DNA of 64,000 bases from an uncultured Thermococci archaeon (GCA_964595645.1 CAZQQT010000005.1:96001-160000); one strand, 5' to 3'; positions 32,928 to 49,477 are shown, numbered from the stretch's first letter. Notes: generated from the letters alone by a model not told the origin. Program-made: numbers and translations.

Positions 32928-32928
32928 C

Positions 32929-34714
32929 ATGTACGGATACGGCGGTAAGGTGCTGTGGGTTGATCTCACCGATAGGGAGGTTCGCATCGAAACGGTGGCA
33001 GAGTCGTGGATAAAACCTGTTATCGGCGGCCGTGCTGCCAATACAAAGCGACTTATAGAAAAAATCGATCCCTCATGCGATCCACTAGGGCCTGAGAATG
33101 TACTCATCTTCGGAGTTGGTCCGCTTACCGGCTCGCTCCTTCCGGCCTCTGTCTACCATACCATTACTGCAAAATCACCGCTCACCGGAATACTTGGCGA
33201 TTCTGCGGCTGGCGGTCAGTTCGGTGCGGCAATGAAGCGCACGGGGTTTGACCAGATTGTTATCAGCGGGAAAGCAGAGTCTCTTAGCTATCTTCTGATC
33301 ACTGATGACGGCGTAGAGTTCATTGCGTGTCCTGAGTATGAAGGAACGTCGATTTTGGAAACCACACATCGTATTCGAAAGGATCAGCGCGATCATTCCA
33401 TCGAAGTGGCAGCCATTGGGCCTGCAGGAGAGAACGAAGTCCTCTTTGCTTCGGTTGTTTCCAGCGGAAACAGAGTGAATGGTCGTACCGGTATGGGTGC
33501 TGTGATGGGATCAAAAAATCTCAAGGCGGTGGCTGTTACAGGATCCCGTTCGGTGGAACTGGCAGATCCATTGCAGTTTTTCTCACTTGTCAGGGAGCTT
33601 GAGAAGAAAATCCGGAATCATCCCGAGTATGAGAAGCGGTACCATCTTGGGACTACGATGCTTATGAAAGATCTTAACAGCATCGGTATTCTTCCTACCA
33701 ATCATTTTCAAAAAGGGATCTGTTCCTATGTTGACAAAATTTCAGGAGAGACGCTCGCAAAGAAATTTAAAATGAAAAATAAATCTTGTTTTAACTGCAA
33801 CGTCCACTGTTCCCGTTACTATCGGTGCAACGGTCTGGAAGCAGAGGGACCGGAGTTCGAAACGCTCTGCAGCTTTACCTCACGTATAGGAAACGATAAT
33901 CTTGCCTTCGCCTTGGAGATGAACAGGTACCTCAACCAGATGGGTCTCGATTCTATCTCCACTGGTGAGATCATTGGGTGGATAATGGAGTGTCAAGAAA
34001 GGGGACTGATCGCACCGAAAGAGCTCGATGGGGTTAGTATTTCATGGGGAGAGAGAAAAGATCCGCGAGATCGTGAGGAAGATAGTACATCGGGAAGGTA
34101 TAGGCGATGAGTTAGCCGCCGGTGCAAGAAATTTTTCGAAATCATTCAGTAAAGAAGCACAGGAATTAGTAATGCATGTGAAGGGACTGGACGTGATCTG
34201 CGGCGATCCTCGAGGAATAAAAGCATATGGTCTTACCTACGCAATTGCTTCTCGTGGAGCAGATCACCTCCGAGCAGAACCGTATTTTGAGCTCACCAAC
34301 AGAAAAAAAGAGGCAAAAAGACGATTTGGTACAGAAAAAGCTGCCGATAGATTATCAGAAGAGGGAAAAGCTGCACTGGTAACGTATTCCGAGAAAATTT
34401 CGCTTCTCTGCGATTCATTAACGATGTGTAAGAATATTGGACTTTGTATGGACATCTTAGATTTTGAGAATGCTGCTTCCCTCTTAAAGGCGGGTACCGG
34501 GATTCACTACACACTAGAATATCTAAAAAAGACACTGGAAGAAGCTATCACGCGGGACCGAGAGCTCAATGGTAGGTTCGGGCTTATTGAAGAAGAGGAT
34601 ACCCTCCCAGATCGGTTTGTCCATGAGCCACTGGGAGAGGGAGCAACACAAGGCTCCGTAGTGGATATCGATAGGATGGTGGAGGAGTATTATAAACTCC
34701 ATGGATGGAAGTAA
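32929..34714 (+). pseudogene. aor: Tungsten aldehyde:ferredoxin oxidoreductase (AOR/WOR family) split by one frameshift
   Basis: KSPLTG, AIGPAGEN, GRTGMGAVMGSKNLKAV, CFNC..HC, EGPEFET, GLDSIS / REGIGD.LA.G, RGADH, DTLP.RF, YY..HGW; frame break at (GA)4, 34049-34056. Confidence 0.88.
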
Positions 34715-34726: not shown

Positions 34727-35534
34727 TTATTCCTTCGGTTTCCTTCTCAATGAAAATCCTGTCTTTTTCTTTACAAATTTGTATGCACTGTACAGAATTG
34801 CGGCCATGGCAGCAACAGGTACTGTAATGAAGAATCCGATGATTATTACTCTAATCGTTGCCATAAAAGCCTGTATTCCTGTTTCAAGAGCTCCCTTTAG
34901 TCCCCACTCATACGATATCGGTTTCGGCTCCGAGATGCGAATGGTGATTGTCGAGTACTCGACTCTGTTTTTCAGGTAGTTCATCTCTCCCTGAAGTCTT
35001 TCAATCGCTTCTCTTGTATCTGAGAGTCTTGATTCTATTTTGAGGATTTCTTCTACCGTGTCCGCCTTTTCAAGTATCTCGAGATACCGTTGTTCTTCAG
35101 CTTTCCTATTTTTCAACCGTGATTCAAGATCGATATATTGTTTTGTGACATCTTCTCTCCGTACATCAGTACTTTGTACCGTTCCCAGCAATTTTATTTC
35201 TTTCTACCACCTGCGAAAAGTGTTTTTCAGGTATTCGTAGGGTAACGTACCCTTCTCTATAGTTTTCCTCAGTTTCAGAGGATGATTGCGCGATGTATCC
35301 TTCGTATTTTTCTGTGATTTTTTCTATCTTCTTCAATGTTATCTCAAAATTTCCTGTCTCTATCTCTATCTGAGAGGCGGTAATCACTTTTCTCTCAGAG
35401 ATTGACTCTTCGGAAGTTGAGGTACTTGGCTCTTTCTCTCCTCCTGTTCCTTTTTGGAGGTCCAAAGCCTCCTCTCCACCGATGCATCCCACAAAAAGTA
35501 CAACAACCACTACTGCAAGTAAAATTTTTCTCAT
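34727..35534 (-). pseudogene. DUF4349-like lipoprotein split by one frameshift
   Basis: Lipobox FVGC; G..TLRIP / EDVT.QY.DLESRL, YLKNRVEYSTI; C-terminal TM; one extra A in GAAAGAA near 35201-35203. Confidence 0.82.
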
Positions 35535-36028: not shown

Positions 36029-36907
36029 ATGACTATGCATGAGATCCTTCATAAAGAAGAATTAAGTGATACCATTAAGCTTTTAGATGTGGAAGCGCCT
36101 TTAATTGCAAAGAAATTTGAGCCCGGACAGTTTTTAACAATTCGTATCGATGAAAAAGGAGAAAGAGTGCCGTTGACTATTGTAGATACCGACGAATACA
36201 AGGGGAGCGTCCGAATAATATTTCAAGAGGTAGGAAAAACAACTAAACAGCTGGGACTGCTCGATGAGGAAGATTTCATCGAGGACATCGTCGGCCCCTT
36301 AGGAACTGCTTCTGAGATAGAGAACTTTGGAAAGGTCGTGTGCGTTGGAGGGGGTGTCGGCGCTGCACCACTCTACCCTCAAGCTCGTGCCCTCCATGAA
36401 GCGGGAAATGAGGTTATTACTATTATAGGTGCACGAACAAAGGATTTACTAATATTGGAGGACGAGATGAAAGAGGTTTCTGATAGGTTCTATATCACTA
36501 CAGATGACGGTTCCTATGGGAGGAAGGGATTCGTATCCGATGTGTTACAGGAAATACTTGAGGAAGAGGAGATTAACAGAGTGATCACTATTGGTCCTGC
36601 GATAATGATGATGGTCACGGCAAGGGTAACCAAACCCCATGGCGTGAAAACAATAGCGTCCTTGAACTCCATTATGGTTGATGGAACAGGGATGTGCGGA
36701 GCATGTAGGGTGAAAGTAGGTGGGGAAACAAAGTTCGCCTGCGTTGATGGCCCCGATTTCGATGCCCATAAAGTTGACTTTGAGTTGCTCATGGAAAGAC
36801 AAAAAATGTATCTCGAGGAGGAAATTCGGGCGATAGAATCGTATGAAGATGAGCTATTCGAAAAACTAAGTGCTGTCCGTTCCCTCGTTAAAGAAAAAAG
36901 GAGATAA
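36029..36907 (+). CDS. nfnA: NfnA (SudB-like) small subunit, copy 1
   Basis: PGQF..GERVPLTI, GPLG, GGGVG.AP, IGP..MM, MVDGTGMCGACRV..CVDGP.FD. Confidence 0.93.
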   Translation: MTMHEILHKEELSDTIKLLDVEAPLIAKKFEPGQFLTIRIDEKGERVPLTIVDTDEYKGSVRIIFQEVGKTTKQLGLLDEEDFIEDIVGPLGTASEIENFGKVVCVGGGVGAAPLYPQARALHEAGNEVITIIGARTKDLLILEDEMKEVSDRFYITTDDGSYGRKGFVSDVLQEILEEEEINRVITIGPAIMMMVTARVTKPHGVKTIASLNSIMVDGTGMCGACRVKVGGETKFACVDGPDFDAHKVDFELLMERQKMYLEEEIRAIESYEDELFEKLSAVRSLVKEKRR

Positions 36908-36921
36908 AGGAGGGATCATGA

Positions 36922-38304
36922 ATGGTTGTCAAAGAAAAAACAAAAATAAAGGAACAGGATCCAGAAGAGAGAATCAATAATTTTTACGAGGTTGTACAGG
37001 GTTACAGCATTGAAGAGGCAATGAAAGAGGCTGAGAGATGTTTACAATGTAAAAATTCGCCGTGTGTAAATGGTTGTCCAGTAGAAATAGATATCCCTGC
37101 ATTTGTACAACTTATAAAAGAAGGAAACTTTGATGAAGCAATAGCAAAAATAAAAGAGAAGAATAACCTTCCTGGAATTACTGGTCGTGTTTGCCCCCAG
37201 GAGGAGCAGTGTGAGAAAAAATGTACCCTAGGAAAAAAATTTGAGCCTGTGGCAATTGGCAAATTGGAACGATTTGCAACAGACTGGGAAATGAAGAAGG
37301 GAGTAGCGCCACCAGAAGTACCGGAGTCTACGGGAAAAAAAGTTGCTATTGTGGGTTCAGGACCAGCTGGGCTTACCTGTGCAGGAGATCTCGCACGGAA
37401 GGGTCACGAAGTTACACTGTACGAATCACTCCATAAACCGGGTGGGGTGCTGGTCTATGGTATCCCAGAGTTCCGACTGCCGAATAAAACAGTTGAGGAC
37501 GAGATCGAATACATAGAGAAGCTTGGTGCCAAGATAAAGGTAAATCATGTGATAGGGAAAATACTCACCATGGAAGAGTTGCTGGAAGAGTACAACGCTG
37601 TGTTTGTTGGCACTGGTGCAGGCCTTCCCAGATTTTTGGGAGTTCCTGGTGAGAACCTTAATGGAGTATACTCCGCAAACGAATTTTTAACGAGAGTAAA
37701 TCTTATGAAAGCATATAAGTTTCCCGAATATGACACTCCGGTGAAGATAGGAAAGCGAGTTGCAGTGGTTGGTGCAGGCAATGTGGCCATGGACTCAGCG
37801 AGAACGGCGTTGCGACTTGGTGCTGATAAATCGTATATAGTTTACAGGCGGTCTGAGAATGAAATGCCTGCCAGAGATGAGGAGATCGAACATGCCCGGG
37901 AAGAGGGCGTTGAGTTTCTTCTCCTGACAAATCCAACAAAGTTTGTAGATGATGGTAGTGGATGGGTAAATAAAATGGAGTGTATCAAGATGAAGCTCGG
38001 TGAGCCCGATAAATCAGGGAGACCGAGACCGATACCCATTGATGGAAGCGAGTTCCCTATCGACGTTGATCTTGTGGTGATCGCTTGCGGTCAGAGACCT
38101 AATCCACTTCTTCCTGATGCAACGGAGGGTCTTGAGACTACAGAATGGGGAACGGTTAAAGCCGATGAGAATGGAAGAACTACACTCGATCGTGTGTGGG
38201 CTGGTGGGGATATTACCTCTGGAGCGGCAACAGTGATTGCAGCGATGGGTGCAGGAAAAAAGGCAGCAGCGGATATGCACGCATTCCTTACAGAGGATAC
38301 ATAA
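36922..38304 (+). CDS. nfnB: NfnB (SudA/GltD-like) large subunit, copy 1
   Basis: RCLQC..PC..GCP, GRVCPQE.QCE..C, GSGPAG, YGIPEFRLP, GAGNVAMD, YRR....PAR, GGD...GAATVI.AM. Confidence 0.94.
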   Translation: MVVKEKTKIKEQDPEERINNFYEVVQGYSIEEAMKEAERCLQCKNSPCVNGCPVEIDIPAFVQLIKEGNFDEAIAKIKEKNNLPGITGRVCPQEEQCEKKCTLGKKFEPVAIGKLERFATDWEMKKGVAPPEVPESTGKKVAIVGSGPAGLTCAGDLARKGHEVTLYESLHKPGGVLVYGIPEFRLPNKTVEDEIEYIEKLGAKIKVNHVIGKILTMEELLEEYNAVFVGTGAGLPRFLGVPGENLNGVYSANEFLTRVNLMKAYKFPEYDTPVKIGKRVAVVGAGNVAMDSARTALRLGADKSYIVYRRSENEMPARDEEIEHAREEGVEFLLLTNPTKFVDDGSGWVNKMECIKMKLGEPDKSGRPRPIPIDGSEFPIDVDLVVIACGQRPNPLLPDATEGLETTEWGTVKADENGRTTLDRVWAGGDITSGAATVIAAMGAGKKAAADMHAFLTEDT

Positions 38305-38410: not shown

Positions 38411-38451
38411 TAAGATTTTTAAACCTCGATGTGGAATACAAAGCGATATAC

Positions 38452-38931
38452 ATGGGTAATCCTCCGGTGGAAGATGAGATAAGAAAGATTGTTCATGAAC
38501 ACGGTCCGCAACCTGAAAATCTGATCGCGATTCTGCAGGCATTGCAGGAAAACTACGGCTTTCTCCCTGAGAAAGCATTTCCACTTCTTGCAAGTGAAAT
38601 GGAAATTTCAGAGTCGAGAATATATGGGGTAGCTACCTTTTATGCGCAGTTTAAATTTATAAAGCCAGGGAAGCACGAGATAAAAGTCTGCATGGGAACA
38701 GCATGTCATGTGAAGGGATCAGAAACACTTCTTAATGCCATGAAATCAGAACTCGAAATAGAGCCAGGAGAGACGACTGAAGACGAGTTTTTCAGTCTGG
38801 AACGGGTAGCATGTCTGGGGTGTTGTGCGCTTTCCCCAGTAGCCATGATCGACGGCAAAGTTCACGCACGGATGACCCGACCAAAACTCATCTCATTACT
38901 CGATAGGTTCAACGAGGAAAGAGAGGGATAA
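38452..38931 (+). CDS. HydC/NuoE-like [2Fe-2S] subunit
   Basis: GVATFY.QF, CMGTACHVKG, ACLGCC.LSPV. Confidence 0.93.
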   Translation: MGNPPVEDEIRKIVHEHGPQPENLIAILQALQENYGFLPEKAFPLLASEMEISESRIYGVATFYAQFKFIKPGKHEIKVCMGTACHVKGSETLLNAMKSELEIEPGETTEDEFFSLERVACLGCCALSPVAMIDGKVHARMTRPKLISLLDRFNEEREG

Positions 38932-38932
38932 T

Positions 38933-40801
38933 ATGAACGAAAAATCTACTATTCTAGTGTGTAGGGGTACAGGGTGTACCTCATCGGATTCACCAAAGAT
39001 ATATGATGCGTTAAGGGAGAAGGTCTCCGAGGAGAATCTGGACAATGTTGAAGTGAAACAGACAGGTTGCCATGGATTTTGTCAGCGGGGTCCCATCGTT
39101 GTTATCGAACCTGAAGGCACATTTTACTGTGAGGTAACACTGGATGATGTTTCCGAGATTATAGAGTCTCATATCAAAAATGATACACCCGTGGAACGCC
39201 TGTTCTACCGAGAATCAGAACATAAGGAACCAGTACGCTTTTATGAAGACATCTCCTTTTATAAAAATCAACACAGGATCATTCTGCGAAATTGTGGGAA
39301 GATCGATCCTGAAAATATTGACGACTACATTAATGCAGGGGGATATGACGGACTCAATCAAGTGCTTTCCTCTATGGCACCTGAGAATGTGGTAAGTGAA
39401 ATAAAACGATCGGGTCTTCGTGGGAGAGGAGGCGCAGGTTTTTCCACTGGATTAAAATGGATGTTTTGTCGCGGCGAAGAGAGCGATGAGAAATACATTA
39501 TATGCAACGCAGATGAGGGCGATCCCGGAGCGTTCATGGACCGCAGTATTCTAGAGGCAGATCCACACAGTGTGCTCGAGGGGCTGACAATTGGTGGATA
39601 CGCAATTGGTGCGACACAGGGATATATCTACATACGTGAAGAGTATCCCCTTGCCATTCATCGAATAAAAATTGCCATCGAACAGTCGAGAGATCGCGGT
39701 TTTTTGGGTAAAAATATCCTTGATTCTGGAGTTAACTTTGATATTAAAATAAGCAAGGGAGCAGGTGCATTTGTATGCGGCGAAGAAACAGCACTTATTG
39801 CATCTGTAGAAGGAAAACGAGGGATGCCTCGTCCTCGTCCTCCTTATCCCACTCAAAAAGGATTATGGGGAAAACCAACAGTGATAAACAATGTGAAAAC
39901 GCTGGCAAATATTCCTATAATCATCACGAAAGGAGCGGACTGGTTCTCATCCATCGGTTCGGAAAGATCCGCAGGTACTGCTGTCTTTGCTCTCACAGGA
40001 AAGGCTACAAACAGTGGACTTGTAGAAGTCCCCATGGGAACGAGGCTTCAAGACATCATCTACAATATAGGTGGCGGGATTCCTGGCGACAAAATGGTGA
40101 AAGCTGTGCAGACAGGGGGGCCCTCAGGTGGCTGTATCCCAGCACACATGGTGGGTCTTACCTTCGATTATGAATCGCTCATACAAGAAACGTACATTCC
40201 AGCCAACTATGTGGATCTTCCCATTGACTATGAAACCCTCGCTAGAGTTGGTTCTATTATGGGTTCTGGTGGAATGGTGATAATGGATGAGGATACCTGT
40301 ATGGTTGATGTTGCTCATTTTTTTCTGAGTTTTACTCAGTACGAGTCCTGCGGAAAATGTCCTCCTTGTCGTGAAGGAACGAAGAAAATGAAGGATATCT
40401 TGGAGAGAATCATTGAAGGAAGAGGAAAGATGGGAGATATAAACCTCTTAGAAGAGCTTGCTATTACTGTGAAGAGAGGTTCACTTTGCGGGTTGGGTCA
40501 AACAGCGCCAAACCCCGTATTAACAACATTGCGATATTTCAGGCACGAGTATGAGGCCCATATAAAGGATAAACGGTGTCCGGCGAAGGCCTGCAAAGCG
40601 TTGATATGGTTTGAGATCGATCCAGACACGTGCATCGGCTGCACAAAGTGCGCACGGAACTGTCCGGTGGATGCTATTACAGGTGAGGCAAAGGAACCGC
40701 ATGAAATCGATCAGGATCCGTGCATAAAATGTGGAACATGTCTGGAGGTATGTCCTGTGAATGCTGTGGAGAAGAAGACTAACAAGCCCGGAGGTGTGTA
40801 A
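38933..40801 (+). CDS. HydB/NuoF-like FMN/NAD(H) subunit of the electron-bifurcating HydABC (Bfu) type
   Basis: N-terminal CRGTGC/CHGFC; SGLRGRGGAGF; NADEGDPGAFMDR; GAFVCGEET; ESCGKC.PCREG..SLCGLG; H..KRCPAKAC; two C-terminal [4Fe-4S] motifs. Confidence 0.93.
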   Translation: MNEKSTILVCRGTGCTSSDSPKIYDALREKVSEENLDNVEVKQTGCHGFCQRGPIVVIEPEGTFYCEVTLDDVSEIIESHIKNDTPVERLFYRESEHKEPVRFYEDISFYKNQHRIILRNCGKIDPENIDDYINAGGYDGLNQVLSSMAPENVVSEIKRSGLRGRGGAGFSTGLKWMFCRGEESDEKYIICNADEGDPGAFMDRSILEADPHSVLEGLTIGGYAIGATQGYIYIREEYPLAIHRIKIAIEQSRDRGFLGKNILDSGVNFDIKISKGAGAFVCGEETALIASVEGKRGMPRPRPPYPTQKGLWGKPTVINNVKTLANIPIIITKGADWFSSIGSERSAGTAVFALTGKATNSGLVEVPMGTRLQDIIYNIGGGIPGDKMVKAVQTGGPSGGCIPAHMVGLTFDYESLIQETYIPANYVDLPIDYETLARVGSIMGSGGMVIMDEDTCMVDVAHFFLSFTQYESCGKCPPCREGTKKMKDILERIIEGRGKMGDINLLEELAITVKRGSLCGLGQTAPNPVLTTLRYFRHEYEAHIKDKRCPAKACKALIWFEIDPDTCIGCTKCARNCPVDAITGEAKEPHEIDQDPCIKCGTCLEVCPVNAVEKKTNKPGGV

Positions 40802-40802
40802 C

Positions 40803-43001
40803 ATGGTCATGCTCACAATAAATAATAAAGAAGTGGAGGGCAACGAAGGAGATACAATTCTCGAAGTGGCAGAAGCAGCAGATATTTATATCCCCACACT
40901 CTGTAACCATCCACAGTTACCACCCTTCGGTAGCTGTAGAATGTGTCTTGTTAAGGTTCAAGATATGCAGAACTACGTCCCTGCATGCACCACCCCTATT
41001 GATGAGGGGATGGTAGTGTATACAGATATAGAGGAATTGAAAAGGCTCAAACGCAACATACTTGAGCTCATACTCTGTGATCATCCAAGTGCTTGCATCG
41101 TTTGTGATGATCGAGAACTATGTTTCAAGTATCACAAAGACCCTGAGAAAGCAGGTACAACGACCGGCTGTCGTTTCTGCCCGAACAAGGATGATTGTGA
41201 ACTTTACGAAATAGCGGATCATCTTGATATAAAGGATCTGCGTTTGGAGGTAAGGTACAAAGAGTTACCAATACATCGAGATGATTTCTTTATTGAGCGA
41301 AATTATAATCTCTGTATATTATGCGGAAGATGTGTGAGAGAATGTCGTGAGATCAGAGGTGTTTCTGCCGTAGCGTTTACGGAGAGAAGCCATAAAGCTA
41401 CGGTAGGAACGGCCTTCGATAAACCATTAATAGAGAGTGAGTGTATCTTCTGTGGGGCATGCATTGATGTGTGCCCCACGGGCGCACTGTCAGAGAAGGC
41501 GTTAAAGTGGGGAGGAAAAGCTGAAAAGATAACTTCTACTACCTGCATGCTCTGTCCCTTCGGTTGCAATATCAATGTGGAGTCGAGAAGAGAAAGGGTC
41601 ATGAATGTCTGGTCACCGAGAGAGAATATAAATGAGGGGCAGTTGTGCATGAAAGGCCGCTTCATTATACCACCCCTCATGAATTCTCCGAATAGAGCCC
41701 GGCATCCAATGATACGAAAAAATGGTACATTACAACCTGTGTCGTGGGAAAAAGCCATTGCTTACGCAGCAGAACATCTAATGAAATACAATGGAGGGGA
41801 AGTGGGTATTGGTGTTTCTTCGTGGCTCACAAACGAGGATGCATATCTCCTTCAGAAGTTTGCACGAGGTGTAATGGGTACCGACAACTTACTTCCGATA
41901 TCGTCCATGATACAGGGTGTTGCCCGCCCACTTGCCGAAAATTTTGGATTCTGCGGCCCTACAGGAACGATAGAGAAGCTCGATACCGCAGATACGATTC
42001 TTATCATCGGTACAGATCTCAATCTCTCGGCACCTGTGCTCCTCGTTCCTACATATAGGGCGAAAACAAGAGGTGCTACAGTCATCATGATCGGTACCAA
42101 TACAACGAAAGTCCCAAAGTATGTGGACACATACGTTTCTCCCAAAAAGTATAGATCATTTTTCACTGAAGTAATGAAAAAAATGGAGAAAGAAAAAGAA
42201 AATCCTGAAGGAGATAGTGGGAAGGTAGCCGAGGCGTTAAAGCATGGAAACACTGTGATTATCTTTGGTCCGGGTCTTACCGGTGAAGATGGTGCCGAAA
42301 CTGTAAAAATTCTTAGTGATACTCTCTCCCAGAAACATATCACTGTGCTACCGGCATGGGATGGCGGTAACCTGCAGGGAATACTGGATATGGGCGCCGT
42401 ATCGGGAATACTACCAGGACAGCACTCTCTTTCCTCTGAGGATGCAAAAACACGTATAGAACATTTATGGAATCTCCCGATAGCTGAAAGTACCGGAAAA
42501 CAGGAAAACATGAAGGTTCTCTATCTCACAGAACCTGTGTCGTCTGTTCCCGAGAATGTGGAGTTCCTCGTGCTTCATACTATCTTCGATACGGATCTCG
42601 CTGAAAGGGCCGATGTTGTCTTTCCCACTACTGCGTTCACAGAAATGGAGGGCACAGTAACGAATCTTGAAGGGAGGGTACAACGTGTTACTCAATGCAC
42701 CAACCCTCCTGCCATGGCGATGAGCCCCTGGAGGGCAATTACTAACCTCGCAGAAGCGATGGACGCTTCAGGATTTGAATATGAGGCTGTGAGTGAGGTG
42801 ACAGATGAGATATTCCAATGTATACCAGAAATGGATATAGGAATTTATTCCAGACAGAAGAAGAAATCGGAACAACTGAGTATCGGTGAAGATGAAATCC
42901 CTCCCCCCCATGGAGAGCTTGGATACGGAGGTACATATCTCGGCGATCTCGTAAAGGATTTTGATGCTATCGTTTCATACTGGAGGTCTAACAATGAATA
43001 A
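40803..43001 (+). CDS. HydA/NuoG/FdhA-like FeS subunit with degenerate molybdopterin-fold domain
   Basis: IPTLC..GSCRMC..C; H..C..C; CILCGRC..C; CIFCGAC..CP; CMLCPFGC..C; FDH-like scaffold (TNE..Y..QKFAR, EGT.TN.EGRVQ) without an H-cluster or Mo-ligating Cys/Sec motif. Confidence 0.85.
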   Translation: MVMLTINNKEVEGNEGDTILEVAEAADIYIPTLCNHPQLPPFGSCRMCLVKVQDMQNYVPACTTPIDEGMVVYTDIEELKRLKRNILELILCDHPSACIVCDDRELCFKYHKDPEKAGTTTGCRFCPNKDDCELYEIADHLDIKDLRLEVRYKELPIHRDDFFIERNYNLCILCGRCVRECREIRGVSAVAFTERSHKATVGTAFDKPLIESECIFCGACIDVCPTGALSEKALKWGGKAEKITSTTCMLCPFGCNINVESRRERVMNVWSPRENINEGQLCMKGRFIIPPLMNSPNRARHPMIRKNGTLQPVSWEKAIAYAAEHLMKYNGGEVGIGVSSWLTNEDAYLLQKFARGVMGTDNLLPISSMIQGVARPLAENFGFCGPTGTIEKLDTADTILIIGTDLNLSAPVLLVPTYRAKTRGATVIMIGTNTTKVPKYVDTYVSPKKYRSFFTEVMKKMEKEKENPEGDSGKVAEALKHGNTVIIFGPGLTGEDGAETVKILSDTLSQKHITVLPAWDGGNLQGILDMGAVSGILPGQHSLSSEDAKTRIEHLWNLPIAESTGKQENMKVLYLTEPVSSVPENVEFLVLHTIFDTDLAERADVVFPTTAFTEMEGTVTNLEGRVQRVTQCTNPPAMAMSPWRAITNLAEAMDASGFEYEAVSEVTDEIFQCIPEMDIGIYSRQKKKSEQLSIGEDEIPPPHGELGYGGTYLGDLVKDFDAIVSYWRSNNE

Positions 43002-43827
43002 AATAATCACTATAAAGGAAATTGTACCCAATGTTCATGAAATCACAGTAAAAGCTCCAGAAGTGGCAGTAAAGGCAAAACCCGGTCAGTTTGCAGTGAT
43101 CATCCCTGATAAAGTAGGAGAGCGGATTCCATTGAGCCTTGCGAATTGGGATACATCTGAGGGGACTGTTACTATGGATTTTTTAGAGGTGGGCGTGTCA
43201 ACAATGAAGCTCGCTAGGAAAAAGGCAGGCGACATGATAGATTTTATGGCACCATTAGGCGAACCTGCAACAATAAAGGAGTATGGTACAGTGTTTATTG
43301 GAGGAGGATGTTATGGGATCGGTGCAATATATCCTATTTTAAAAGCGATGAAAGAGGCAGGTAACCGTACGATTACAGCTATTGAGGCAAGGAGTGAGTA
43401 TTTACTCTACAATGAAGAACTGTTGAAGAATTATTCAGATAGATTTATCATTACAACGTCGGATGGAAGTAGAGGAGAGAAAGGAAAGGTAAAATCAATG
43501 TTCAACGCATTGATAGAAAGTGGTGAAAAAATAGACATGGCGTACTTCATGGGATGTACCTTTATGATGATGATATCCGCCGAGAGGGCAAAAGAGCACG
43601 ATATAAAAAATTTTGTGTATCTCAATCCACTAATGGTGGATGCCACAGGTATGTGCGGCGTATGCAGAGTGAATGTGGGAGGAAAGACGAAATTCGCCTG
43701 TGTTGATGGTCCAGAGTTCCCAGGGAACGAGGTAGATTGGGAAGAGCTGTTCACACGAAAGGATCAGTATGCAGTACATGAGAGAGAGGCGTATCAGCAC
43801 AAATGTAGGTTAGAGGGAGGTGAGTAA
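42994..43827 (+). CDS. nfnA: NfnA-like subunit, variant copy 2
   Basis: PGQF..GERIPLSL, GGGCYG, GCTFMM, MVDATGMCGVCRV..CVDGPEF. Confidence 0.88.
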   Translation: MNKIITIKEIVPNVHEITVKAPEVAVKAKPGQFAVIIPDKVGERIPLSLANWDTSEGTVTMDFLEVGVSTMKLARKKAGDMIDFMAPLGEPATIKEYGTVFIGGGCYGIGAIYPILKAMKEAGNRTITAIEARSEYLLYNEELLKNYSDRFIITTSDGSRGEKGKVKSMFNALIESGEKIDMAYFMGCTFMMMISAERAKEHDIKNFVYLNPLMVDATGMCGVCRVNVGGKTKFACVDGPEFPGNEVDWEELFTRKDQYAVHEREAYQHKCRLEGGE

Positions 43828-43829
43828 CA

Positions 43830-45308
43830 ATGCCGTACAAATACGAGGGAAAACAGCTTTCTCCTGAAGAAAGAAAAGAAAGAATGAAAAAATCCAGAAA
43901 AAAAATGCCCGAGCAAGATCCAAAAGTACGAATTACAAATTTCAACGAGGTAAACTTAGGTTACAATGCCGAAACAGCTATTAAGGAGGCGAAAAGATGC
44001 CTTCTCTGTGCGAACTCACCATGTGTGAGGGGATGCCCAGTCAGCATTAAGATCCCTGAGTTCCTTGATAAAGTAACGGAGGGTAAGTTCGTTGAGGCAC
44101 TTGAGATAGTAAAGGAGGACAATGTACTCCCCGCAGTTACTGGGAGAGTATGCCCACAAGAAATCCAATGTGAAGGAGAGTGTACCCAGGGAAAGGTCAA
44201 CGATCATCCTCTTGGGATTGGTTATCTCGAACGGTTTGTGGCGGATTACGAGCGTACTTCCTCCGAGTCGTGTTGCGTAGAGGTAAAGCCCTCTTCCGGG
44301 AAAAAGGTGGCTGTAGTAGGATCTGGTCCTGGAGGTCTCACTGTGGCAGCAGATGCAGCGAGAGAGGGGCATGAGGTGCATGTCTTCGAAGCGCTCCACA
44401 AACCAGGAGGTGTGCTCATCTACGGTATTCCAGAATTCCGGCTACCAAAGGATATTGTCGCGTATGAGATTGAAGGACTCCGTGAGATGGGAGTCACATT
44501 TCATACGAGCCATGTCATCGGGAGAATCTATACCATCGATGATCTTCTGGATAAGAAAGGATTCGATGCAGTCTATCTCGGCATTGGCGCAGGACTCCCT
44601 CGATTCATGAGGATCAGTGGCGAGAACCTCAATGGGATCTACAGTGCCAACGAGTACCTCACCAGATCGAACCTGATGAAAGCGTACGATTTTCCCGCTT
44701 ACGACACTCCAATTTTACGAGGAAGAAATGTAGCAGTAATCGGAGGAGGAAATGTTGCCATGGACTCGGTACGGACTGCCCTGCGGCTCGGAGCAGAGAA
44801 TGCGTATCTCGTCTACCGACGTGCCAGAAAACAAATGCCCGCGAGAGATGAAGAAATAAAACATGCAGAGGAAGAAGGGGTCGATTTTAGACTGTTAAGA
44901 AATCCTGTGAAGTATATTGGTAATGAAAACGGATGGGTGGAGCAGATGGAATGCATCAAGATGGAGCTCGGCGAGCCCGATGAGTCAGGGAGAAAGCGTC
45001 CTGTTCCTATCGAAGGAAGTGAGTTTACTCTCGATGTAGATCTCGTTGTCGTTGCCATTGGTACCGGTGCCAACCCACTATTGACTCATGCAACTCCAGG
45101 ACTTGAGACGGATGACTGGGGATATATAAAGGTCAACGAACAGTTCCAGACGGCAAAAGAGGGCGTGTTTGCAGGAGGAGATATTGTAAGGGGTGGAGCA
45201 ACGGTAATTCTTGCCATGGGTGATGGCCGCAGCGCGGCGAAATCCATAAATGCGTATCTTGAAACAGAAGGGTGGCCCGAAGAGATAACACCACAGGACT
45301 TCTGGTAG
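43830..45308 (+). CDS. nfnB: NfnB large subunit, copy 2
   Basis: RCLLC..PC..GCP, GRVCPQE.QCE..C, YGIPEFRLP, GGGNVAMD, YRRARKQMPAR. Confidence 0.93.
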   Translation: MPYKYEGKQLSPEERKERMKKSRKKMPEQDPKVRITNFNEVNLGYNAETAIKEAKRCLLCANSPCVRGCPVSIKIPEFLDKVTEGKFVEALEIVKEDNVLPAVTGRVCPQEIQCEGECTQGKVNDHPLGIGYLERFVADYERTSSESCCVEVKPSSGKKVAVVGSGPGGLTVAADAAREGHEVHVFEALHKPGGVLIYGIPEFRLPKDIVAYEIEGLREMGVTFHTSHVIGRIYTIDDLLDKKGFDAVYLGIGAGLPRFMRISGENLNGIYSANEYLTRSNLMKAYDFPAYDTPILRGRNVAVIGGGNVAMDSVRTALRLGAENAYLVYRRARKQMPARDEEIKHAEEEGVDFRLLRNPVKYIGNENGWVEQMECIKMELGEPDESGRKRPVPIEGSEFTLDVDLVVVAIGTGANPLLTHATPGLETDDWGYIKVNEQFQTAKEGVFAGGDIVRGGATVILAMGDGRSAAKSINAYLETEGWPEEITPQDFW

Positions 45309-45394
45309 TAGAGCGAATAATATTCACCACAAAATTTTTAAAGATTTTTAGGTTTTTTTGTGTAGATACAAGAGGACAGTAGAGGCGATTGAAT

Positions 45395-46744
45395 ATGAAA
45401 AAAACAGATGTTCTGGTAATAGGTGGAGGTCCCGCAGGCATTATTACAGCAGTAACTGCAAAGTCAAACTACCCCAAAAAAGATATTTTAGTCATTCGGA
45501 AGGAAGAGAAGGTACTTGTACCATGTGGTATTCCGTATATCTTCGGTACTCTCGAAAGTAGCGATAAAAATGTTATTTCAGATACAGTATTAGACAATGC
45601 TGATGTAGATCTAAAAAGTGATGAGGTAGTTTCTGTAGACAAGGAGGATAAGATTGTAAAAACACAAGATGGTACAGAGATACGCTTTGAAAAGTTGATT
45701 TTTGCCACAGGTTCCTCCCCATACTTTCCAAAGTGGTTGAAAGGTGCCGATTTGGAAAATGTTTTTACTATAAAGAAAAATAAGAGTTATTTGGAGAAGA
45801 TCAAGAAAAAGCTCCAGAACTGTAAAAAAGTGGTGGTGGTTGGAGGAGGATTTATTGGCGTTGAAGTATCTGATGAATTAAATAAGATGGGTAAAGAGGT
45901 AACTATCGTTGAGATCCTTCCTCATGTCTTAGGGCTTGTATTTGATGACGGGTTTGCGAGTACAGCGGAAGAAACACTTCGATCTCGAGGAATATCACTC
46001 AAGACCGGTGCGGGAATAAAAGAAATTTTGGGAGATAAGAAGGTAGAGTCTGTCTTGTTGGAAAATGGAGAAAAAATAGAATGTGATGTAGTGATTCTAT
46101 CAATGGGGTACCGTCCTAACTCTGCACTTGCAGAAGAAGCAGGGCTGAAAGTTGGAGAGAACAAGGGAATCTGGGTAGATGAGTATATGAGAACGGATCA
46201 TCTTGATATTTTTGCTGTGGGCGATTGTGCGGAGAAAAGATCCTTCATAACAAGAAAAGTAAGTAATGTAATGCTAGCCTCTACTGCTACTACTGAGGCA
46301 CGCGTAGCAGGAATGAATCTCTACAATCTCGAAATCTTAAAAACGTTCAACGGGACTATTAGTATCTTTTCTACTGCGCTAGGAGATGCAGGGTTTGCTG
46401 CAGCTGGAATAACTGAATCTCAAGCAAAAGAAAAAGGATTTAAAACTGTTACAGGTACTTTTGAGACGGTTGATAAACATCCCGGATCGCTTCCAAATAC
46501 TCACAAGCAAAAAGTCAAACTTATAGCTTCTAGTTCATCCGGCATAGTTCTTGGAGGGCAGATTGCAGGAGGCGAAAGCGTTGGAGAGCTCATAAATGTC
46601 ATTGGTTTGGCGATTCAGAATAAGATGAGTGCAACATCACTTCTAACGTCTCAGATAGGAACACACCCACTGCTCACTGCGCCTCCAACAGCGTATCCAA
46701 TTATAAAATGTGCAGAAATTATTTCTAAAAAATTGAGAAAATAA
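45395..46744 (+). CDS. CoA-disulfide/persulfide reductase or NADH oxidase-like flavoprotein
   Basis: GGGPAG, single redox Cys PCGIPY, ATGS, GGGFIGVE, FAVGDC, C-terminal dimerisation domain (THPLLT). Confidence 0.88.
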   Translation: MKKTDVLVIGGGPAGIITAVTAKSNYPKKDILVIRKEEKVLVPCGIPYIFGTLESSDKNVISDTVLDNADVDLKSDEVVSVDKEDKIVKTQDGTEIRFEKLIFATGSSPYFPKWLKGADLENVFTIKKNKSYLEKIKKKLQNCKKVVVVGGGFIGVEVSDELNKMGKEVTIVEILPHVLGLVFDDGFASTAEETLRSRGISLKTGAGIKEILGDKKVESVLLENGEKIECDVVILSMGYRPNSALAEEAGLKVGENKGIWVDEYMRTDHLDIFAVGDCAEKRSFITRKVSNVMLASTATTEARVAGMNLYNLEILKTFNGTISIFSTALGDAGFAAAGITESQAKEKGFKTVTGTFETVDKHPGSLPNTHKQKVKLIASSSSGIVLGGQIAGGESVGELINVIGLAIQNKMSATSLLTSQIGTHPLLTAPPTAYPIIKCAEIISKKLRK

Positions 46745-46781: not shown

Positions 46782-48701
46782 ATGAAAGCTATACCAAAAA
46801 AAGAACTTTTTGCATTTGTTGATGCATTAATAGAAACTGAGTCAATGAACGTTGAGGGTCCAAAGGCGAAAGGCGAAAAATTTGTCTTCGGACCGCTCGA
46901 ATCAAGCAACGAACTTCGACTTGATTATGATGTGACTATTCTGCCGCCCAAAAAGTATTTTTTACCACAATATGAAGATATACTGAGCTACGATCTCTCG
47001 CAGCCATTTTCTGTTGAAAAAAAAGAAAAACGCACACCCACAGTAATTGTGGGGATGCATCCCTACGATATCGTGGCAATACAGCAGATGGATACGTACT
47101 ATTTCGATACCTTTGTGGACGATGCGTATCTTCAAAAGCGGAAAAATGCAATAATTATAGGATTAAACGTGACGAATGTTGCAGAAAAAGCATTTTTTGG
47201 AGATATGGGTACAGGGTCTGTCGATTCTGGATACGATCTGATGCTTACAGATTTAGGAGATACAATAGCTATTGAAGTAGGTACAGAGGAGGGAGAAAGC
47301 CTTTTGGACGAGTACGCATCTTCTGTACGTGAGGCAACACCTGAAGAAGTTCAGAAGGTGAAAAAACTCATAGAAAAAGCAAACAAAGAAGCAACGCGCG
47401 ATCTTGCCGTGGAACCATCAGGGTGGCACGATCTCTTAGAAAAAAATTATGATAGTGAGGTATGGAAGGAACAATCAGAGAAATGTCTCAGCTGTGGAAC
47501 GTGCACGCTCGTATGCCCCACCTGTTTCTGTTACGATGTGAATGATGAAGTGAACCTCGATCTTACCACAGGGAAAAGGATACGAACATGGGATGGATGT
47601 CTACTCAGAAACTTCACCAAAGTAGGCTCCGGTGAGGTCTTCCGAGAGGATGTGGAAGACAGATACAGGCACCGATACTACAGGAAGGGGAAATACCTTC
47701 CAGAGATGCTAGAGTTCGTTGCATGTGTTGGGTGTGGCCGTTGTTCCACACAGTGTATCCCTGATATCGCCGATCCCGTGGATGTAATAAATAAGATAGT
47801 TGAAGGATCCTCTCGTCTTGTTGAAGAGTCTGAAATCACCCCTCACACAACGATGAAGGCTCCGGGTACCGTTACAGCAGAAGAGCCCCTTTACAAACCC
47901 CAACCTGCCACTGTTACACGAGTTGAAGAACTCACAGAGCTTGAAACACTGTTTGAGATCGAACTTGACAGCGGCGATCCATTGGGGCACGAACCAGGCC
48001 AGTTTGTCGAAGTTTCAGTAATGGGCTACGGAGAGGCGCCTATCTCTGTGTCCTCTGCACCTGACGGCAACAGCTTTGAACTTGTGGTAAGGAGGGTGGG
48101 AGATGTCACTACAAAACTCCACACCATGAAATCCGGTGATAAAATTGGGATTCGAGGTCCCTTCGGAAATGGATTCGATGTGAATGCCTTGGAAGGTGAA
48201 AATATTCTCTTCATCGGAGGAGGTATTGGTATCGTCCCCATGCGGTCACTCATTAACTACGTACTGGACAATCGGGAAGATTTTAAAGATGTTACCATTC
48301 TCTACGGCTGTAAAAAACCGTGCGAACTTCTCTTTGAAGATGAAGTATCTACGTGGGGAGCTCGTGAGGATGTACAGTTCCTCAAATCTGTGGACAGATG
48401 TCCAGAAGGAGAGGAATGGGACGGTGAGATCGGTGTGATCACATGCCTTATCCCCAAAGCAAAGTTCGATCCGGAGAATACCGTTGCCATCGTAGTAGGA
48501 CCACCAATCATGTATAAGTTCGTTATCGGTGACCTGCTCGATCTGGGCATGCCCGAGGAAAACATCGTTGTGTCCCTGGAGCGGAGAATGAAATGCGGTG
48601 TAGGGAAATGTGGACACTGTCAGATCAATGGACTGTATGTCTGCAAAGATGGACCGGTATTCAATTATAAAGATATAAAGGATCTTCCGGAGGCGATCTA
48701 A
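46782..48701 (+). CDS. Fused beta-gamma subunit of a group 3b [NiFe]-hydrogenase (HydB-HydG / AsrA-AsrB-like)
   Basis: N-half PPKKY, CLSCG.C..VCPTC.C, WDGC, CVGCGRC...C; linker; C-half PGQF, GEAPIS, RGPFG.GF, GGIG..P, GPP.MY, ER.MKCG.GKCGHC..VC.DGPVF. Confidence 0.9.
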   Translation: MKAIPKKELFAFVDALIETESMNVEGPKAKGEKFVFGPLESSNELRLDYDVTILPPKKYFLPQYEDILSYDLSQPFSVEKKEKRTPTVIVGMHPYDIVAIQQMDTYYFDTFVDDAYLQKRKNAIIIGLNVTNVAEKAFFGDMGTGSVDSGYDLMLTDLGDTIAIEVGTEEGESLLDEYASSVREATPEEVQKVKKLIEKANKEATRDLAVEPSGWHDLLEKNYDSEVWKEQSEKCLSCGTCTLVCPTCFCYDVNDEVNLDLTTGKRIRTWDGCLLRNFTKVGSGEVFREDVEDRYRHRYYRKGKYLPEMLEFVACVGCGRCSTQCIPDIADPVDVINKIVEGSSRLVEESEITPHTTMKAPGTVTAEEPLYKPQPATVTRVEELTELETLFEIELDSGDPLGHEPGQFVEVSVMGYGEAPISVSSAPDGNSFELVVRRVGDVTTKLHTMKSGDKIGIRGPFGNGFDVNALEGENILFIGGGIGIVPMRSLINYVLDNREDFKDVTILYGCKKPCELLFEDEVSTWGAREDVQFLKSVDRCPEGEEWDGEIGVITCLIPKAKFDPENTVAIVVGPPIMYKFVIGDLLDLGMPEENIVVSLERRMKCGVGKCGHCQINGLYVCKDGPVFNYKDIKDLPEAI

Positions 48702-49477
48702 TGAAACCAAGAGTAGCATTCTTTGATTTCGCCAGCTGTGAGGGATGTCAGCTGCAGATAGCGAACCTCGAAGAAGCAGTGATTGATGTGACGAAGATAG
48801 TGGATATTGTCTCCTTCCGTGAGGTAATGAAGGAGCACAGCGACGATTACGATATCGCCGTAGTGGAAGGATCGGTAATGAGGCCTATGGACGAGGAACG
48901 GTTGAAAAACATCAGAGAAAATGCAGATATTCTCGTAGCGCTCGGGGCGTGTGCGTGCATAGGATGTGTACAGCGTATGCTCAATCAGTGGCCAATGAAG
49001 GAGAATAAGGAGGTTGTGTACGGTGAGGCTGATCCTTCTGACATTGAAGATAATCCCTACTTCGAAAATTTCCCCACAAAGGCACTGGATGAGATAGTGG
49101 AGGTGGATGCGTATATTCCCGGATGCCCCATCGATAGAGATGAATTCGCAAAAACACTCGTGGCCTTGGTTCAGGGTAAAAAACCACCCATCCCCGACTA
49201 TCCACTCTGTGTCGAGTGTAAGAAAAAAGAAAATGTGTGCGTATTTGAGCTAGGAATGGTATGTTTAGGACCTATCACACGGGCAGGATGCGGTGCTATC
49301 TGTCCTTCCTATGGGAACGAATGCGAGGCGTGCAGGGGGCTAATAAGTCACCCCGAGGAACGGGCGCATAAAGAGGTGCTGGAGAAATACGACCTTACAG
49401 TAGAAGAAATCTTGCAGAGAAAATCAATGTTTACCTACCGGCATGTAGAAGAAAAGGAGGCTGAAGACGATGAGTGA
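48701..49477 (+). CDS. hydD: Group 3b [NiFe]-hydrogenase small (delta) subunit
   Basis: SCEGC, EGS, LGACA, IPGCP, C.EC....C.....CLGP.T.AGC.A.CP..C..CRG. Confidence 0.92.
   Translation: MKPRVAFFDFASCEGCQLQIANLEEAVIDVTKIVDIVSFREVMKEHSDDYDIAVVEGSVMRPMDEERLKNIRENADILVALGACACIGCVQRMLNQWPMKENKEVVYGEADPSDIEDNPYFENFPTKALDEIVEVDAYIPGCPIDRDEFAKTLVALVQGKKPPIPDYPLCVECKKKENVCVFELGMVCLGPITRAGCGAICPSYGNECEACRGLISHPEERAHKEVLEKYDLTVEEILQRKSMFTYRHVEEKEAEDDE

What the first reader, a model, noticed from the sequence alone, without database searches (positions are those of the whole stretch)
38452..45308. Candidate new electron-bifurcating complex: catalytically empty HydABC core coupled to a variant NfnAB (a 'split Stn/NfnABC')
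Seen: five genes are packed with 1-2 nt gaps or overlaps (38931/38933, 40801/40803, 43001/42994, 43827/43830). HydB carries the full bifurcating-type cofactor set: N-terminal 2Fe-2S, FMN/NAD site, the C/H..CP..C site and two C-terminal 4Fe-4S clusters. Known: Sporomusa StnABC and Thermococcus sibiricus NfnABC put a GltD/NfnB-like NADP(H) domain inside the large HydA/NuoG-like subunit. Here that subunit has no GltD insert and no catalytic centre, while a free NfnB and an altered NfnA follow it. Inference: a five-subunit assembly could join two different bifurcation chemistries (HydBC FMN/FeS and NfnB FAD) to link NADH, NADPH and ferredoxin.
Basis: partly seen in the sequence, partly recalled or inferred. 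Interest (0 to 1): 0.85.

Follow-up and report, generated by a model that had tools for sequence, protein, structure and literature searches.

The report
Bfu core wired to variant NfnSL
Five tightly packed genes encode a known electron-splitting core (BfuBC), a catalytically dead connector subunit and a modified copy of a second electron-splitting enzyme (NfnSL); this set recurs across more than ten phyla, often with two of its parts fused, and no paper I could search describes it.

Summary
bfuC-bfuB-bfuA*-nfnS*-nfnL* (38452-45308, + strand) are translationally coupled, with gaps of 1, 1, -8 and 2 nt. BfuB and BfuC carry every bifurcating-type cofactor motif. BfuA* is a NuoG/Fdh-like Fe-S subunit with no Sec/Cys-His active site, no C-terminal pterin domain and no H-cluster.

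The gene order is conserved. Of 80 genomic loci found with BfuA*, 66 have nfnS directly downstream (median gap -1 nt). They span Thermoplasmatota, Asgard archaea, Aminicenantota, Bacteroidota, Planctomycetota, Chloroflexota, Desulfobacterota and others.

The adjacent NfnS forms its own clade, which I call S*. C106, Y/F107, E/D131 and C188 are invariant and replace the canonical pyridine-nucleotide motifs. NfnL* is a standard bifurcating-type NfnL.

In metagenome contigs picked by NfnS similarity, 11 of 11 S* genes with readable upstream DNA follow a BfuA-like gene, against 1 of 40 canonical ones. The 120 best longer homologues of S* are all natural BfuA-NfnS fusions, so the two proteins very probably touch.

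Most likely this is a five-subunit Bfu-type enzyme that links NADP(H), NAD(H) and ferredoxin, with S* as the adaptor. The activity and stoichiometry are untested. Published Bfu classifications do not list this type, so I rate it a new variant of a known kind. The 40 nearest relatives searched lack it.

The parts
38452..38931 (+). bfuC (HydC/NuoE-like, one 2Fe-2S cluster C1); alternative GTG start at 38431
   Evidence: PF01257, E 1e-46. CMGTAC...CLGCC motif. An AT-rich TATA-like TTTTTAAAC lies about 30 nt upstream of ATG 38452, which suggests a leaderless archaeal transcript (inference).
38933..40801 (+). bfuB (HydB/NuoF-like bifurcating subunit: FMN/NAD(H) site and clusters B1-B5)
   Evidence: Pfam Complex1_51K, NADH_4Fe-4S, Fer4 x2 and N-terminal 2Fe-2S_thioredx. 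Best solved relative is A. mobile NiFe-HydB 7t2r_B, 842 bits. All bifurcating-type motifs are present.
40803..43001 (+). bfuA* (NuoG/Fdh-like Fe-S connector with no catalytic centre). Clusters: A1 C34/45/48/62; A2 region with a 25-aa Cys-rich insert (H94, C98, C101, C107, C123, C126, C132); 2x4Fe-4S C171-C181 and C214-C224; A5 C248/251/255/282.
   Evidence: There is no PF01568 and no Sec/Cys-His.
42994..43827 (+). nfnS* (variant NfnS/NfnA). FAD motif GERIPLS and the Asp+3Cys 2Fe-2S site are kept. The nucleotide motifs are remodelled: GGGCYGIGAIYP, AIEAR, MGCTFMM.
   Evidence: NF004862 318 bits, against 422 bits for the canonical copy. No PF00175 hit, unlike NfnS1. PDB 5jca_S 241 bits, against 339 for NfnS1. 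Clade and signature.
43830..45308 (+). nfnL* (NfnL/NfnB: NADP(H)/FAD site and two 4Fe-4S clusters)
   Evidence: T. maritima NfnB 4ylf_B 568 bits. CLLCANSPCVRGCP and CPQEIQCEGEC (Glu ligand); EFRLP Arg; PARDEE Arg (Pf R333 equivalent); long N-terminus.
36029..38304 (+). Canonical nfnS1-nfnL1 pair directly upstream. It is not part of the unit; it serves as the internal control.
   Evidence: Canonical GGGVGAAP / GPAIMM motifs. It groups with NfnS of same-genus and same-family relatives, 78% identity.

Best explanation
The five genes encode one soluble complex of the Bfu family. BfuB and BfuC form the conserved FMN/Fe-S 'flavobicluster' core that binds NAD(H) and ferredoxin. BfuA* is a catalytically dead NuoG/Fdh-like subunit that serves only as an Fe-S wire. 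A dedicated NfnS*-NfnL* pair stands in for the missing catalytic domain. NfnL* supplies the NADP(H)/FAD site and keeps every feature of a bifurcating NfnL.

NfnS* is the adaptor bolted onto the C-terminal side of BfuA*. Its FAD and 2Fe-2S are kept, but its pyridine-nucleotide pocket is rebuilt (invariant C106, Y/F107, E/D131, C188). The high-potential branch of NfnL* therefore probably exchanges electrons with the BfuA* cluster chain instead of with free NADH.

The net chemistry is an NADP(H) : NAD(H) + ferredoxin oxidoreduction, that is, an Nfn-type transhydrogenase.

Shown: the gene anatomy, the cofactor motifs, conservation of the unit, the S* signature, and the BfuA*-S* fusions. Inferred: that all five proteins form one complex, the route of electrons, the substrates and the stoichiometry.

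The lineage appears to descend from formate-dehydrogenase-type clusters (FdhA with S*L*, with or without BfuBC) by loss of the Mo/W site.
For: Translational coupling holds here and across loci, with median gaps C>B -4, B>A -1, A>S -1 and S>L +18 nt.

Of 80 loci, 66 have nfnS and 60 have nfnS-nfnL directly after bfuA. No other gene family occurs in more than 17 of 81 loci.

Of about 55 loci with a degenerate active site, all but four carry nfnS. One of the four, L002, ends at the contig edge; the others are L003, L051 and L071.

NfnS next to degenerate BfuA* forms one clade of 51 rows (SH-aLRT 97), apart from canonical NfnS. C106 and C188 occur in 51 of 51 of these and in 0 of 24 canonical copies.

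Reverse test: 11 of 11 S* genes follow a BfuA-like gene, against 1 of 40 canonical ones.

Fusions: the top 120 of 686 longer homologues of S* all combine BfuA domains with NfnS and carry the S* signature. One is from cultured Desulfogranum japonicum. L066 is a 1100-aa fusion. The fused forms sit in the order BfuC-BfuB-[A*~S*]-NfnL.

Pairwise distances of A and S correlate at r = 0.87, against 0.76 for A and B.

The window also has a separate canonical NfnSL, so S*L* is not redundant.

BfuA* has no third-substrate site of its own.
Against: There is no biochemical, proteomic or transcript evidence. No multimer model could be made with the tools at hand.

NfnL* keeps its ferredoxin-type clusters and both Arg residues, so an NfnS*L* pair could in principle work alone.

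The invariant acidic residue at 131 is typical of NADH-specific FNR-fold sites. S* may therefore still bind a nucleotide.

About half of the genuine Fdh-type clusters also carry NfnSL, some with canonical-type NfnS. Adjacency alone could reflect metabolic coupling through shared NADH and ferredoxin pools rather than a complex.

The fusions prove contact of A* with S* only, not with L* or BfuBC.
Confidence: 0.7

Rival explanations
1. Two independent enzymes are co-transcribed because they share substrates: a BfuABC-type enzyme with an unknown partner, and a free NfnSL-type transhydrogenase.
For: NfnL* is indistinguishable from canonical NfnL. Some Fdh-type clusters carry canonical-type NfnS (L024, L047). 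Operons often group enzymes of one redox node.
Against: Hundreds of natural BfuA*-NfnS* fusions exist. The S* signature is tied to a BfuA-like neighbour, 11 of 11 against 1 of 40. BfuA* has no catalytic site, so BfuA*BC alone would lack a third substrate. The genome already has a canonical NfnSL next door.
Confidence: 0.12
2. A non-bifurcating-FAD version, functionally identical to Stn/NfnABC. NfnL* only oxidises NADPH and passes both electrons through its 4Fe-4S pair into BfuA*. NfnS* is a structural remnant.
For: In Stn/NfnABC the homologous NfnL-like domain wires FAD to the BfuA chain through its two clusters and does not bifurcate. The Cys-rich insert of BfuA* lies exactly at that domain's insertion point.
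Against: S* keeps its FAD and 2Fe-2S motifs under strong conservation (E43, R44, P46, D216 and the Cys ligands are invariant). S*, not L*, is the part fused to BfuA*. L* keeps the Arg residues linked to bifurcation.
Confidence: 0.13
3. A formate-dependent Fdh-Bfu enzyme; the large subunit is a working formate dehydrogenase.
For: NCBIfam and PDB similarity to Fdh alpha subunits. Relatives with a true HCARL[C/U]H site exist in the same gene context.
Against: The window's protein has no Cys/Sec-His at the active-site columns. It has no PF01568 domain and only about 80 residues after the PF00384 match.
Confidence: 0.03

Closest known systems
Nfn-Bfu / StnABC (NfnABC) of Sporomusa ovata, Caldicellulosiruptor saccharolyticus and Thermococcus sibiricus
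   Same: A BfuBC-type core plus a NuoG/Fdh-like BfuA plus an NfnL/GltD-type NADP(H)/FAD module with two 4Fe-4S clusters. The same three substrates are expected. BfuB scores 709-753 bits to the B subunits of these enzymes.
   Different: There, the NfnL-like domain is inserted inside BfuA and no NfnS exists. The FAD does not bifurcate because the Arg is displaced. Here BfuA* has only a 25-aa Cys-rich insert at that spot. NfnL* is a separate, fully canonical subunit, and a remodelled NfnS* is present and is the part that fuses to BfuA*.
NfnSL (NfnAB) of Thermotoga maritima and Pyrococcus furiosus
   Same: NfnL* scores 568 and 547 bits to the solved large subunits, with all cofactor ligands and both Arg residues. 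NfnS* keeps the FAD motif and the Asp+3Cys 2Fe-2S site. The gene order is S then L.
   Different: The NfnS* nucleotide motifs are replaced: GGC[YF]G for GGGVG, GCT for GPA, and an acidic residue at 131. It is always next to, or fused to, a BfuA/FdhA-like protein. It forms a separate clade.
Type 3 Bfu enzymes, e.g. Acetomicrobium mobile NiFe-HydABCSL
   Same: An ABC core with extra S and L subunits that carry the third-substrate site. BfuA has A1-A5 clusters and no catalytic site of its own. This is the closest solved BfuB, at 842 bits.
   Different: There the extra subunits are a NiFe hydrogenase, unrelated to NfnSL. Here the extra subunits are themselves a bifurcating-type flavoenzyme.
Fdh-Bfu (Type 1 formate-dependent Bfu) and related FdhA-NfnS*-NfnL* clusters
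   Same: The same BfuA fold and cluster set, including the Cys-rich insert. NfnS next to these enzymes forms the grade from which the S* clade arises.
   Different: They keep the HCARL[C/U]H active site (10 loci with in-frame TGA, read as Sec) and the C-terminal pterin domain. The window's protein has lost both.

Membership tests
Bfu (BfuABC) family, Schut et al. 2022 | BfuB with FMN/NADH motifs of the bifurcating kind (GDPGAFMDR, GAGAFVCGE) | tested here: met
   CNADEGDPGAFMDR at 191-204 and GAGAFVCGEETAL at 276-288, compared with Suppl. Fig. 10.
Bfu (BfuABC) family, Schut et al. 2022 | BfuB clusters B1-B5, including B2 (3 Cys + His), two C-terminal 4Fe-4S and an N-terminal 2Fe-2S | tested here: met
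   C456; CGKCPPC; SLCGLG; H543/C549/C554; two CxxCxxCxxxCP motifs; C10/C15/C46/C50 (Suppl. Fig. 9).
Bfu (BfuABC) family, Schut et al. 2022 | BfuC with a 2Fe-2S cluster, and a BfuA homologue with at least 2Fe-2S and 4Fe-4S domains, encoded together | tested here: met
   PF01257 in BfuC; Fer2_4 and Fer4 in BfuA*; gaps of 1 nt.
Bfu (BfuABC) family, Schut et al. 2022 | Tightly coupled reduction of NAD+ and ferredoxin by a third substrate | not testable with these tools
   This needs an enzyme assay.
Nfn-Bfu / StnABC (NfnABC) | NfnL/GltD-like NADP(H) domain inserted within the BfuA polypeptide | tested here: not met
   BfuA* is 732 aa with no Fer4_20 or Pyr_redox_2 domain. Csac NfnA residues 101-567 have no counterpart in it.
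NfnSL (NfnAB) | Large subunit: two 4Fe-4S (one Glu-ligated), FAD/NADPH folds, Arg near FAD N5, Pf-R333 equivalent, long N-terminus, nfnS gene upstream | tested here: met
   with the criteria taken from PMC12221290.
NfnSL (NfnAB) | Small subunit: FAD motif and Asp+3Cys 2Fe-2S | tested here: met
   GERIPLS at 42-48 and DATGMCGVCRV...FAC at 216-236.
NfnSL (NfnAB) | Small subunit: canonical NAD(H)-binding motifs (GGGVG..P; GP..MM) | tested here: not met
   GGGCYGIGAIYP and MGCTFMM; no PF00175 hit. C106/C188 occur in 51 of 51 S* and 0 of 24 canonical copies. Whether any nucleotide still binds is unknown.
Mo/W formate dehydrogenase (Fdh-Bfu) | Sec/Cys-His active site and C-terminal molybdopterin-binding domain (PF01568) | tested here: not met
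[FeFe]-hydrogenase HydABC | H-cluster domain in the large subunit | tested here: not met
   No Fe-hydrogenase large-subunit domain. Only the N-terminal Fe-S part matches HydA chains.

The most novel reading that the evidence does not exclude
The complex runs two different bifurcation centres in series. The BfuBC flavobicluster replaces NADH as the partner of the high-potential branch of NfnL*-FAD, by way of BfuA* and the remodelled S*-FAD, while ferredoxin still serves the low-potential branch. That would change the stoichiometry from 1 NADH + 1 Fd(2e) per 2 NADPH to about 1 NADH + 3 Fd(2e) per 4 NADPH, giving a stronger drive on the NADPH pool. The two invariant cysteines of S* (C106, C188) would form a new redox or metal site at the BfuA*-S* interface.
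Probability: 0.25. Interest if true: 0.9.

Novelty: new variant of a known kind. Interest (0 to 1): 0.72.

Why it matters
Bfu enzymes and NfnSL are two of the few known families of electron-bifurcating enzymes, and they have been treated as alternatives that do the same job. [quoted passage not shown]

This unit joins the two physically. It is widespread in uncultured anaerobes that dominate sediments: Aminicenantota, Asgard archaea, Thermoplasmatota, Dehalococcoidia, Desulfobacterota and Planctomycetota. Automatic annotation probably labels it 'formate dehydrogenase' or 'molybdopterin oxidoreductase' plus 'glutamate synthase / sulfide dehydrogenase', as the source names suggest.

It gives a concrete test of whether two bifurcation centres can work in series. 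It supplies a simple sequence signature (GGC[YF]G ... GCT) for finding such enzymes. It points to at least one cultured host of the fused form, Desulfogranum japonicum. It also suggests how Stn/NfnABC may have arisen, by insertion of NfnL at the Cys-rich loop of BfuA.

Tried and rejected
- The 40 closest relatives have no BfuA* at E<=1e-50, and their only NfnS matches at E<=1e-30 are canonical copies. Vertical conservation therefore could not be used. The unit looks horizontally acquired or patchily kept.
- I tested whether the downstream CoA-disulfide-reductase-like gene or the group 3b hydrogenase is the real partner of BfuA*. I rejected this because neither recurs in other loci.
- I looked for residues that separate NfnL* from canonical NfnL. 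Only two weak positions appeared (V172, Y276), so L* is not diagnostic.
- I tested whether the Cys-rich insert of BfuA co-varies strictly with the S* cysteines, which would suggest a shared inter-subunit cluster. It does not. The insert also occurs with GP-type NfnS (L022, L031, L043) and in loci with no NfnS at all.
- An AlphaFold2 model of a natural fusion (P0229; pLDDT 79, pTM 0.68) and a Foldseek search only confirmed the two folds. No coordinates are returned, so no inter-cofactor or Cys-Cys distances could be measured.
- Seven literature searches found no description of this unit. Subscription-only papers were not searchable.
- One mis-specified Pfam call and one invalid 'of' argument (82) were corrected and re-run.
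Full report
**1. What is in the window**

Eleven co-oriented genes lie between 36029 and 51290:
- a canonical nfnS1-nfnL1 pair (36029-38304);
- the five genes of the finding (38452-45308);
- a CoA-disulfide-reductase/NADH-oxidase-like gene (45389-46744);
- a group 3b 'sulfhydrogenase' with fused beta-gamma, delta and alpha subunits (46782-50768);
- a HycI-type maturation protease (50799-51290).

The junctions are TAA-T-ATG between bfuC and bfuB, TAA-C-ATG between bfuB and bfuA*, an 8-nt overlap (ATGAATAA) between bfuA* and nfnS*, and TAA-CA-ATG between nfnS* and nfnL*. Each internal start follows a GGAGG-type ribosome-binding site. The unit is set off by a ~147-nt AT-rich spacer upstream and an 80-nt spacer downstream.

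**2. The proteins**

BfuB (622 aa) has every feature that Schut et al. 2022 use to separate bifurcating BfuB from non-bifurcating NuoF/HoxF-type homologues (PMC9304861). These are the GDPGAFMDR and GAGAFVCGEETAL motifs, the B1 and B2 ligands including the His, two C-terminal 4Fe-4S motifs and the N-terminal 2Fe-2S. Its best solved relative is the B subunit of the Acetomicrobium mobile NiFe-HydABCSL (842 bits). Other bifurcating B subunits follow, including Csac, Tsib and S. ovata NfnB/StnB.

BfuC has the single 2Fe-2S motif.

The large subunit is not HydA-like. It has Fer2_4, a ferredoxin-like two-cluster domain, Molybdop_Fe4S4 and a Molybdopterin (PF00384) domain. It lacks PF01568 and any H-cluster domain. 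In an alignment with 80 relatives, true formate dehydrogenases (Fdh) read HCARL[C/U]H at the active site, ten of them with an in-frame TGA that I read as selenocysteine. The window's protein reads ISSMIQG there. It is therefore a catalytically empty NuoG/Fdh-like wire, which I call BfuA*.

NfnL* is an orthodox NfnL, at 568 bits to T. maritima NfnB. It has both cluster motifs (one with the Glu ligand), the Arg of EFRLP, the equivalent of Pf Arg333 and a long N-terminus. These are the criteria of PMC12221290.

NfnS* keeps the FAD motif (GERIPLS) and the Asp+3Cys 2Fe-2S site, but its nucleotide motifs differ from those of NfnS1 in the same window. GGGVGAAP becomes GGGCYGIGAIYP, IIGAR becomes AIEAR, and IGPAIMM becomes MGCTFMM. 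It also loses the PF00175 hit that NfnS1 has. An earlier first-stage note (e1-5615458) had pointed to these changes. I tested them across families, as described below.

**3. Is the unit conserved?**

A profile of BfuA* relatives retrieved 80 loci from species-representative genomes.

tblastn and ORF calling gave these results:
- 66 loci have nfnS directly after bfuA, and 60 also have nfnL. Several of the rest end at a contig edge.
- Median gaps are C>B -4, B>A -1, A>S -1 and S>L +18 nt.
- No other gene family occurs in more than 17 of 81 loci, so the conserved module is exactly these five genes. The hydrogenase and the CoADR-like gene are peculiar to this genome.

Carriers with a degenerate BfuA* include Thermoplasmatota, Thorarchaeota/Promethearchaeota, Aminicenantota, Bacillota-labelled MAGs, Bacteroidota, Planctomycetota, Chloroflexota, Thermodesulfobacteriota, Deferrimicrobiota and WOR-3.

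BfuA falls into two classes. About 24 loci have a genuine Fdh site, and roughly half of these carry NfnSL. About 55 loci have a degenerate site, and all but four carry NfnS; one of the four ends at the contig edge.

**4. NfnS* is a distinct subfamily tied to BfuA**

In a maximum-likelihood tree of 89 NfnS sequences, the 51 copies next to degenerate BfuA* form one clade (SH-aLRT 97). This clade is nested in a grade of copies that lie next to genuine Fdh-type BfuA. Canonical NfnS lies outside. The outside group includes the window's NfnS1, which sits with same-genus and same-family relatives at 78% identity.

C106, Y/F107, E/D131 and C188 are invariant in the 51. Neither Cys occurs in any of 24 canonical sequences. 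NfnL* shows no comparable signature.

I then ran the test in reverse, on an independent set of 80 metagenome contigs chosen by NfnS similarity. All 11 S*-type genes with readable upstream DNA follow a BfuA-like gene, against 1 of 40 canonical-type genes.

**5. Evidence for physical contact**

A search for longer relatives of NfnS* returned 686 proteins at E<=1e-20. All 120 listed combine BfuA domains (PF13510, PF22117, PF10588, PF00384) with the NfnS Fe-S domain. Most are about 830 aa and a few about 1135 aa.

All 120 carry the S* signature. Of these, 104 also carry the full BfuA cluster set, including the Cys-rich insert. One comes from cultured Desulfogranum japonicum.

L066 (Ca. Deferrimicrobium) is a verified 1100-aa fusion. 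Three fused examples fetched with their flanks sit in the order BfuC-BfuB-[A*~S*]-NfnL.

An AlphaFold2 model of the D. japonicum fusion (pLDDT 79, pTM 0.68) matches Pf NfnI-S in its C-terminal part (TM 0.89) and NuoG / NiFe-HydA / FdsA in the rest.

Pairwise distances of BfuA correlate with those of NfnS (r = 0.87) at least as well as with those of its undisputed partner BfuB (r = 0.76). This is a descriptive figure only, because the sequences are related to one another.

**6. Relation to Stn/NfnABC**

In Csac NfnA and S. ovata StnC, the NfnL-like domain is inserted between the first Cys of the A2 motif and the C-x5-C-E-L part. The query matches 2-98 and then 126 onward, while the chains jump from about 100 to 568.

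At exactly this place BfuA* carries a 25-residue insert with three extra Cys (C101, C107, C123). The insert is present in most relatives and absent from a few plain Fdh-type proteins.

The 'split Stn' picture is therefore apt for BfuA* and NfnL*. NfnS*, however, has no counterpart in Stn/NfnABC, and it is NfnS*, not NfnL*, that fuses to BfuA*.

**7. Likely mechanism**

Shown: all cofactor sites needed for NAD(H) and ferredoxin (BfuB) and for NADP(H) (NfnL*); no other substrate site; and contact between A* and S*.

Inferred: one complex that links the three carriers, with S* as the adaptor whose FAD/2Fe-2S branch talks to the BfuA* chain instead of to free NADH.

Two sub-models remain open. In the first, both centres bifurcate in series, which would change the stoichiometry. 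In the second, NfnL* acts as a simple NADPH dehydrogenase, as in Stn.

The invariant acidic residue 131 leaves open that S* still binds a nucleotide.

Three loci have genuine FdhA-S*-L* with no BfuBC nearby (L026, L074, L077). This shows that S*L* is a module that serves FdhA-type subunits in general. It also suggests that the present unit arose from a formate-linked ancestor by loss of the Mo/W site.

**8. Novelty**

The Bfu classification lists no ABC + NfnSL type, in either the main text or Supplementary Table 1. The Stn and NfnABC structure papers state that Stn has no NfnA homologue, and they treat NfnSL and NfnABC as alternatives. [quoted passage not shown] Targeted searches found nothing.

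Sewell et al. 2017 noted conserved nfnBA genes in Dehalococcoidia but did not describe this complex.

Such clusters may have been counted as 'Fdh' in earlier surveys because of the PF00384 domain; that is my inference.

Limits: only open-licence papers were searchable, and no experiment exists.

**9. Origin in this genome**

The genome is 1.97 Mb in 14 contigs and 99.96% complete. It has one BfuB and two NfnL genes. None of the 40 nearest relatives searched has BfuA*, and their only NfnS matches are canonical copies. This includes a same-genus genome that is 94% complete.

NfnS* groups with Thermoplasmatota, Asgard and Desulfobacterota copies, whereas NfnS1 groups with kin. This points to horizontal acquisition, or to loss in the relatives.

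The class-level relatives look like Thermococcales: complete 1.8-2.2 Mb genomes with two or three Nfn copies each.

Noticed in passing
window 32433-34714: An aldehyde:ferredoxin oxidoreductase (AFOR_N + AFOR_C) is split into two overlapping ORFs (32929-34110 and 34028-34714). This suggests a frameshift or a sequencing error. A small 4Fe-4S protein gene (32433-32927) precedes it.
   Followed up: partly
window 34727-35534 (- strand): A DUF4349 gene is likewise split into two overlapping ORFs (34727-35191 and 35166-35534).
   Followed up: no
window 46782-48701: The beta and gamma subunits of a group 3b (sulf)hydrogenase are fused in one 639-aa ORF (Fer4_22 + FAD_binding_6/NAD_binding_1 + DHODB_Fe-S_bind). 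Delta, alpha and a HycI protease follow. An earlier scan note also reported this.
   Followed up: partly
L022, L030, L031, L043, L062, L078, L204: In several Dehalococcoidales and related loci, BfuB is fused to an extra NfnL/GltD-like domain (ORFs of about 1030 aa). It lies between bfuC and bfuA, in addition to the downstream NfnS-NfnL.
   Followed up: partly
L026, L074, L077: Three-gene modules of genuine FdhA (Cys type) with NfnS* and NfnL, with no BfuBC upstream; the neighbours are regulators or housekeeping genes. These are a candidate NADP-linked formate dehydrogenase built on the same S*L* module.
   Followed up: partly
L007 3412-4575 and 16 other loci: An AlaDh/PNT-type gene (alanine dehydrogenase or transhydrogenase alpha-like) recurs upstream of the cluster in 17 of 81 loci.
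   Followed up: no
L009, L029, L031, L033, L043, L045, L047, L048, L053, L079: Fdh-type BfuA genes with an in-frame TGA at the CARL-U-H active site, which I read as selenocysteine. ORF callers would cut these genes in two.
   Followed up: yes
window 36029-38304; L016, L017: A canonical NfnSL pair sits directly upstream of the Bfu-NfnS*L* unit in the window. Two Thermoplasmatota loci show the same arrangement (in L017 the canonical pair is a single fused ORF), so both Nfn types coexist side by side.
   Followed up: partly
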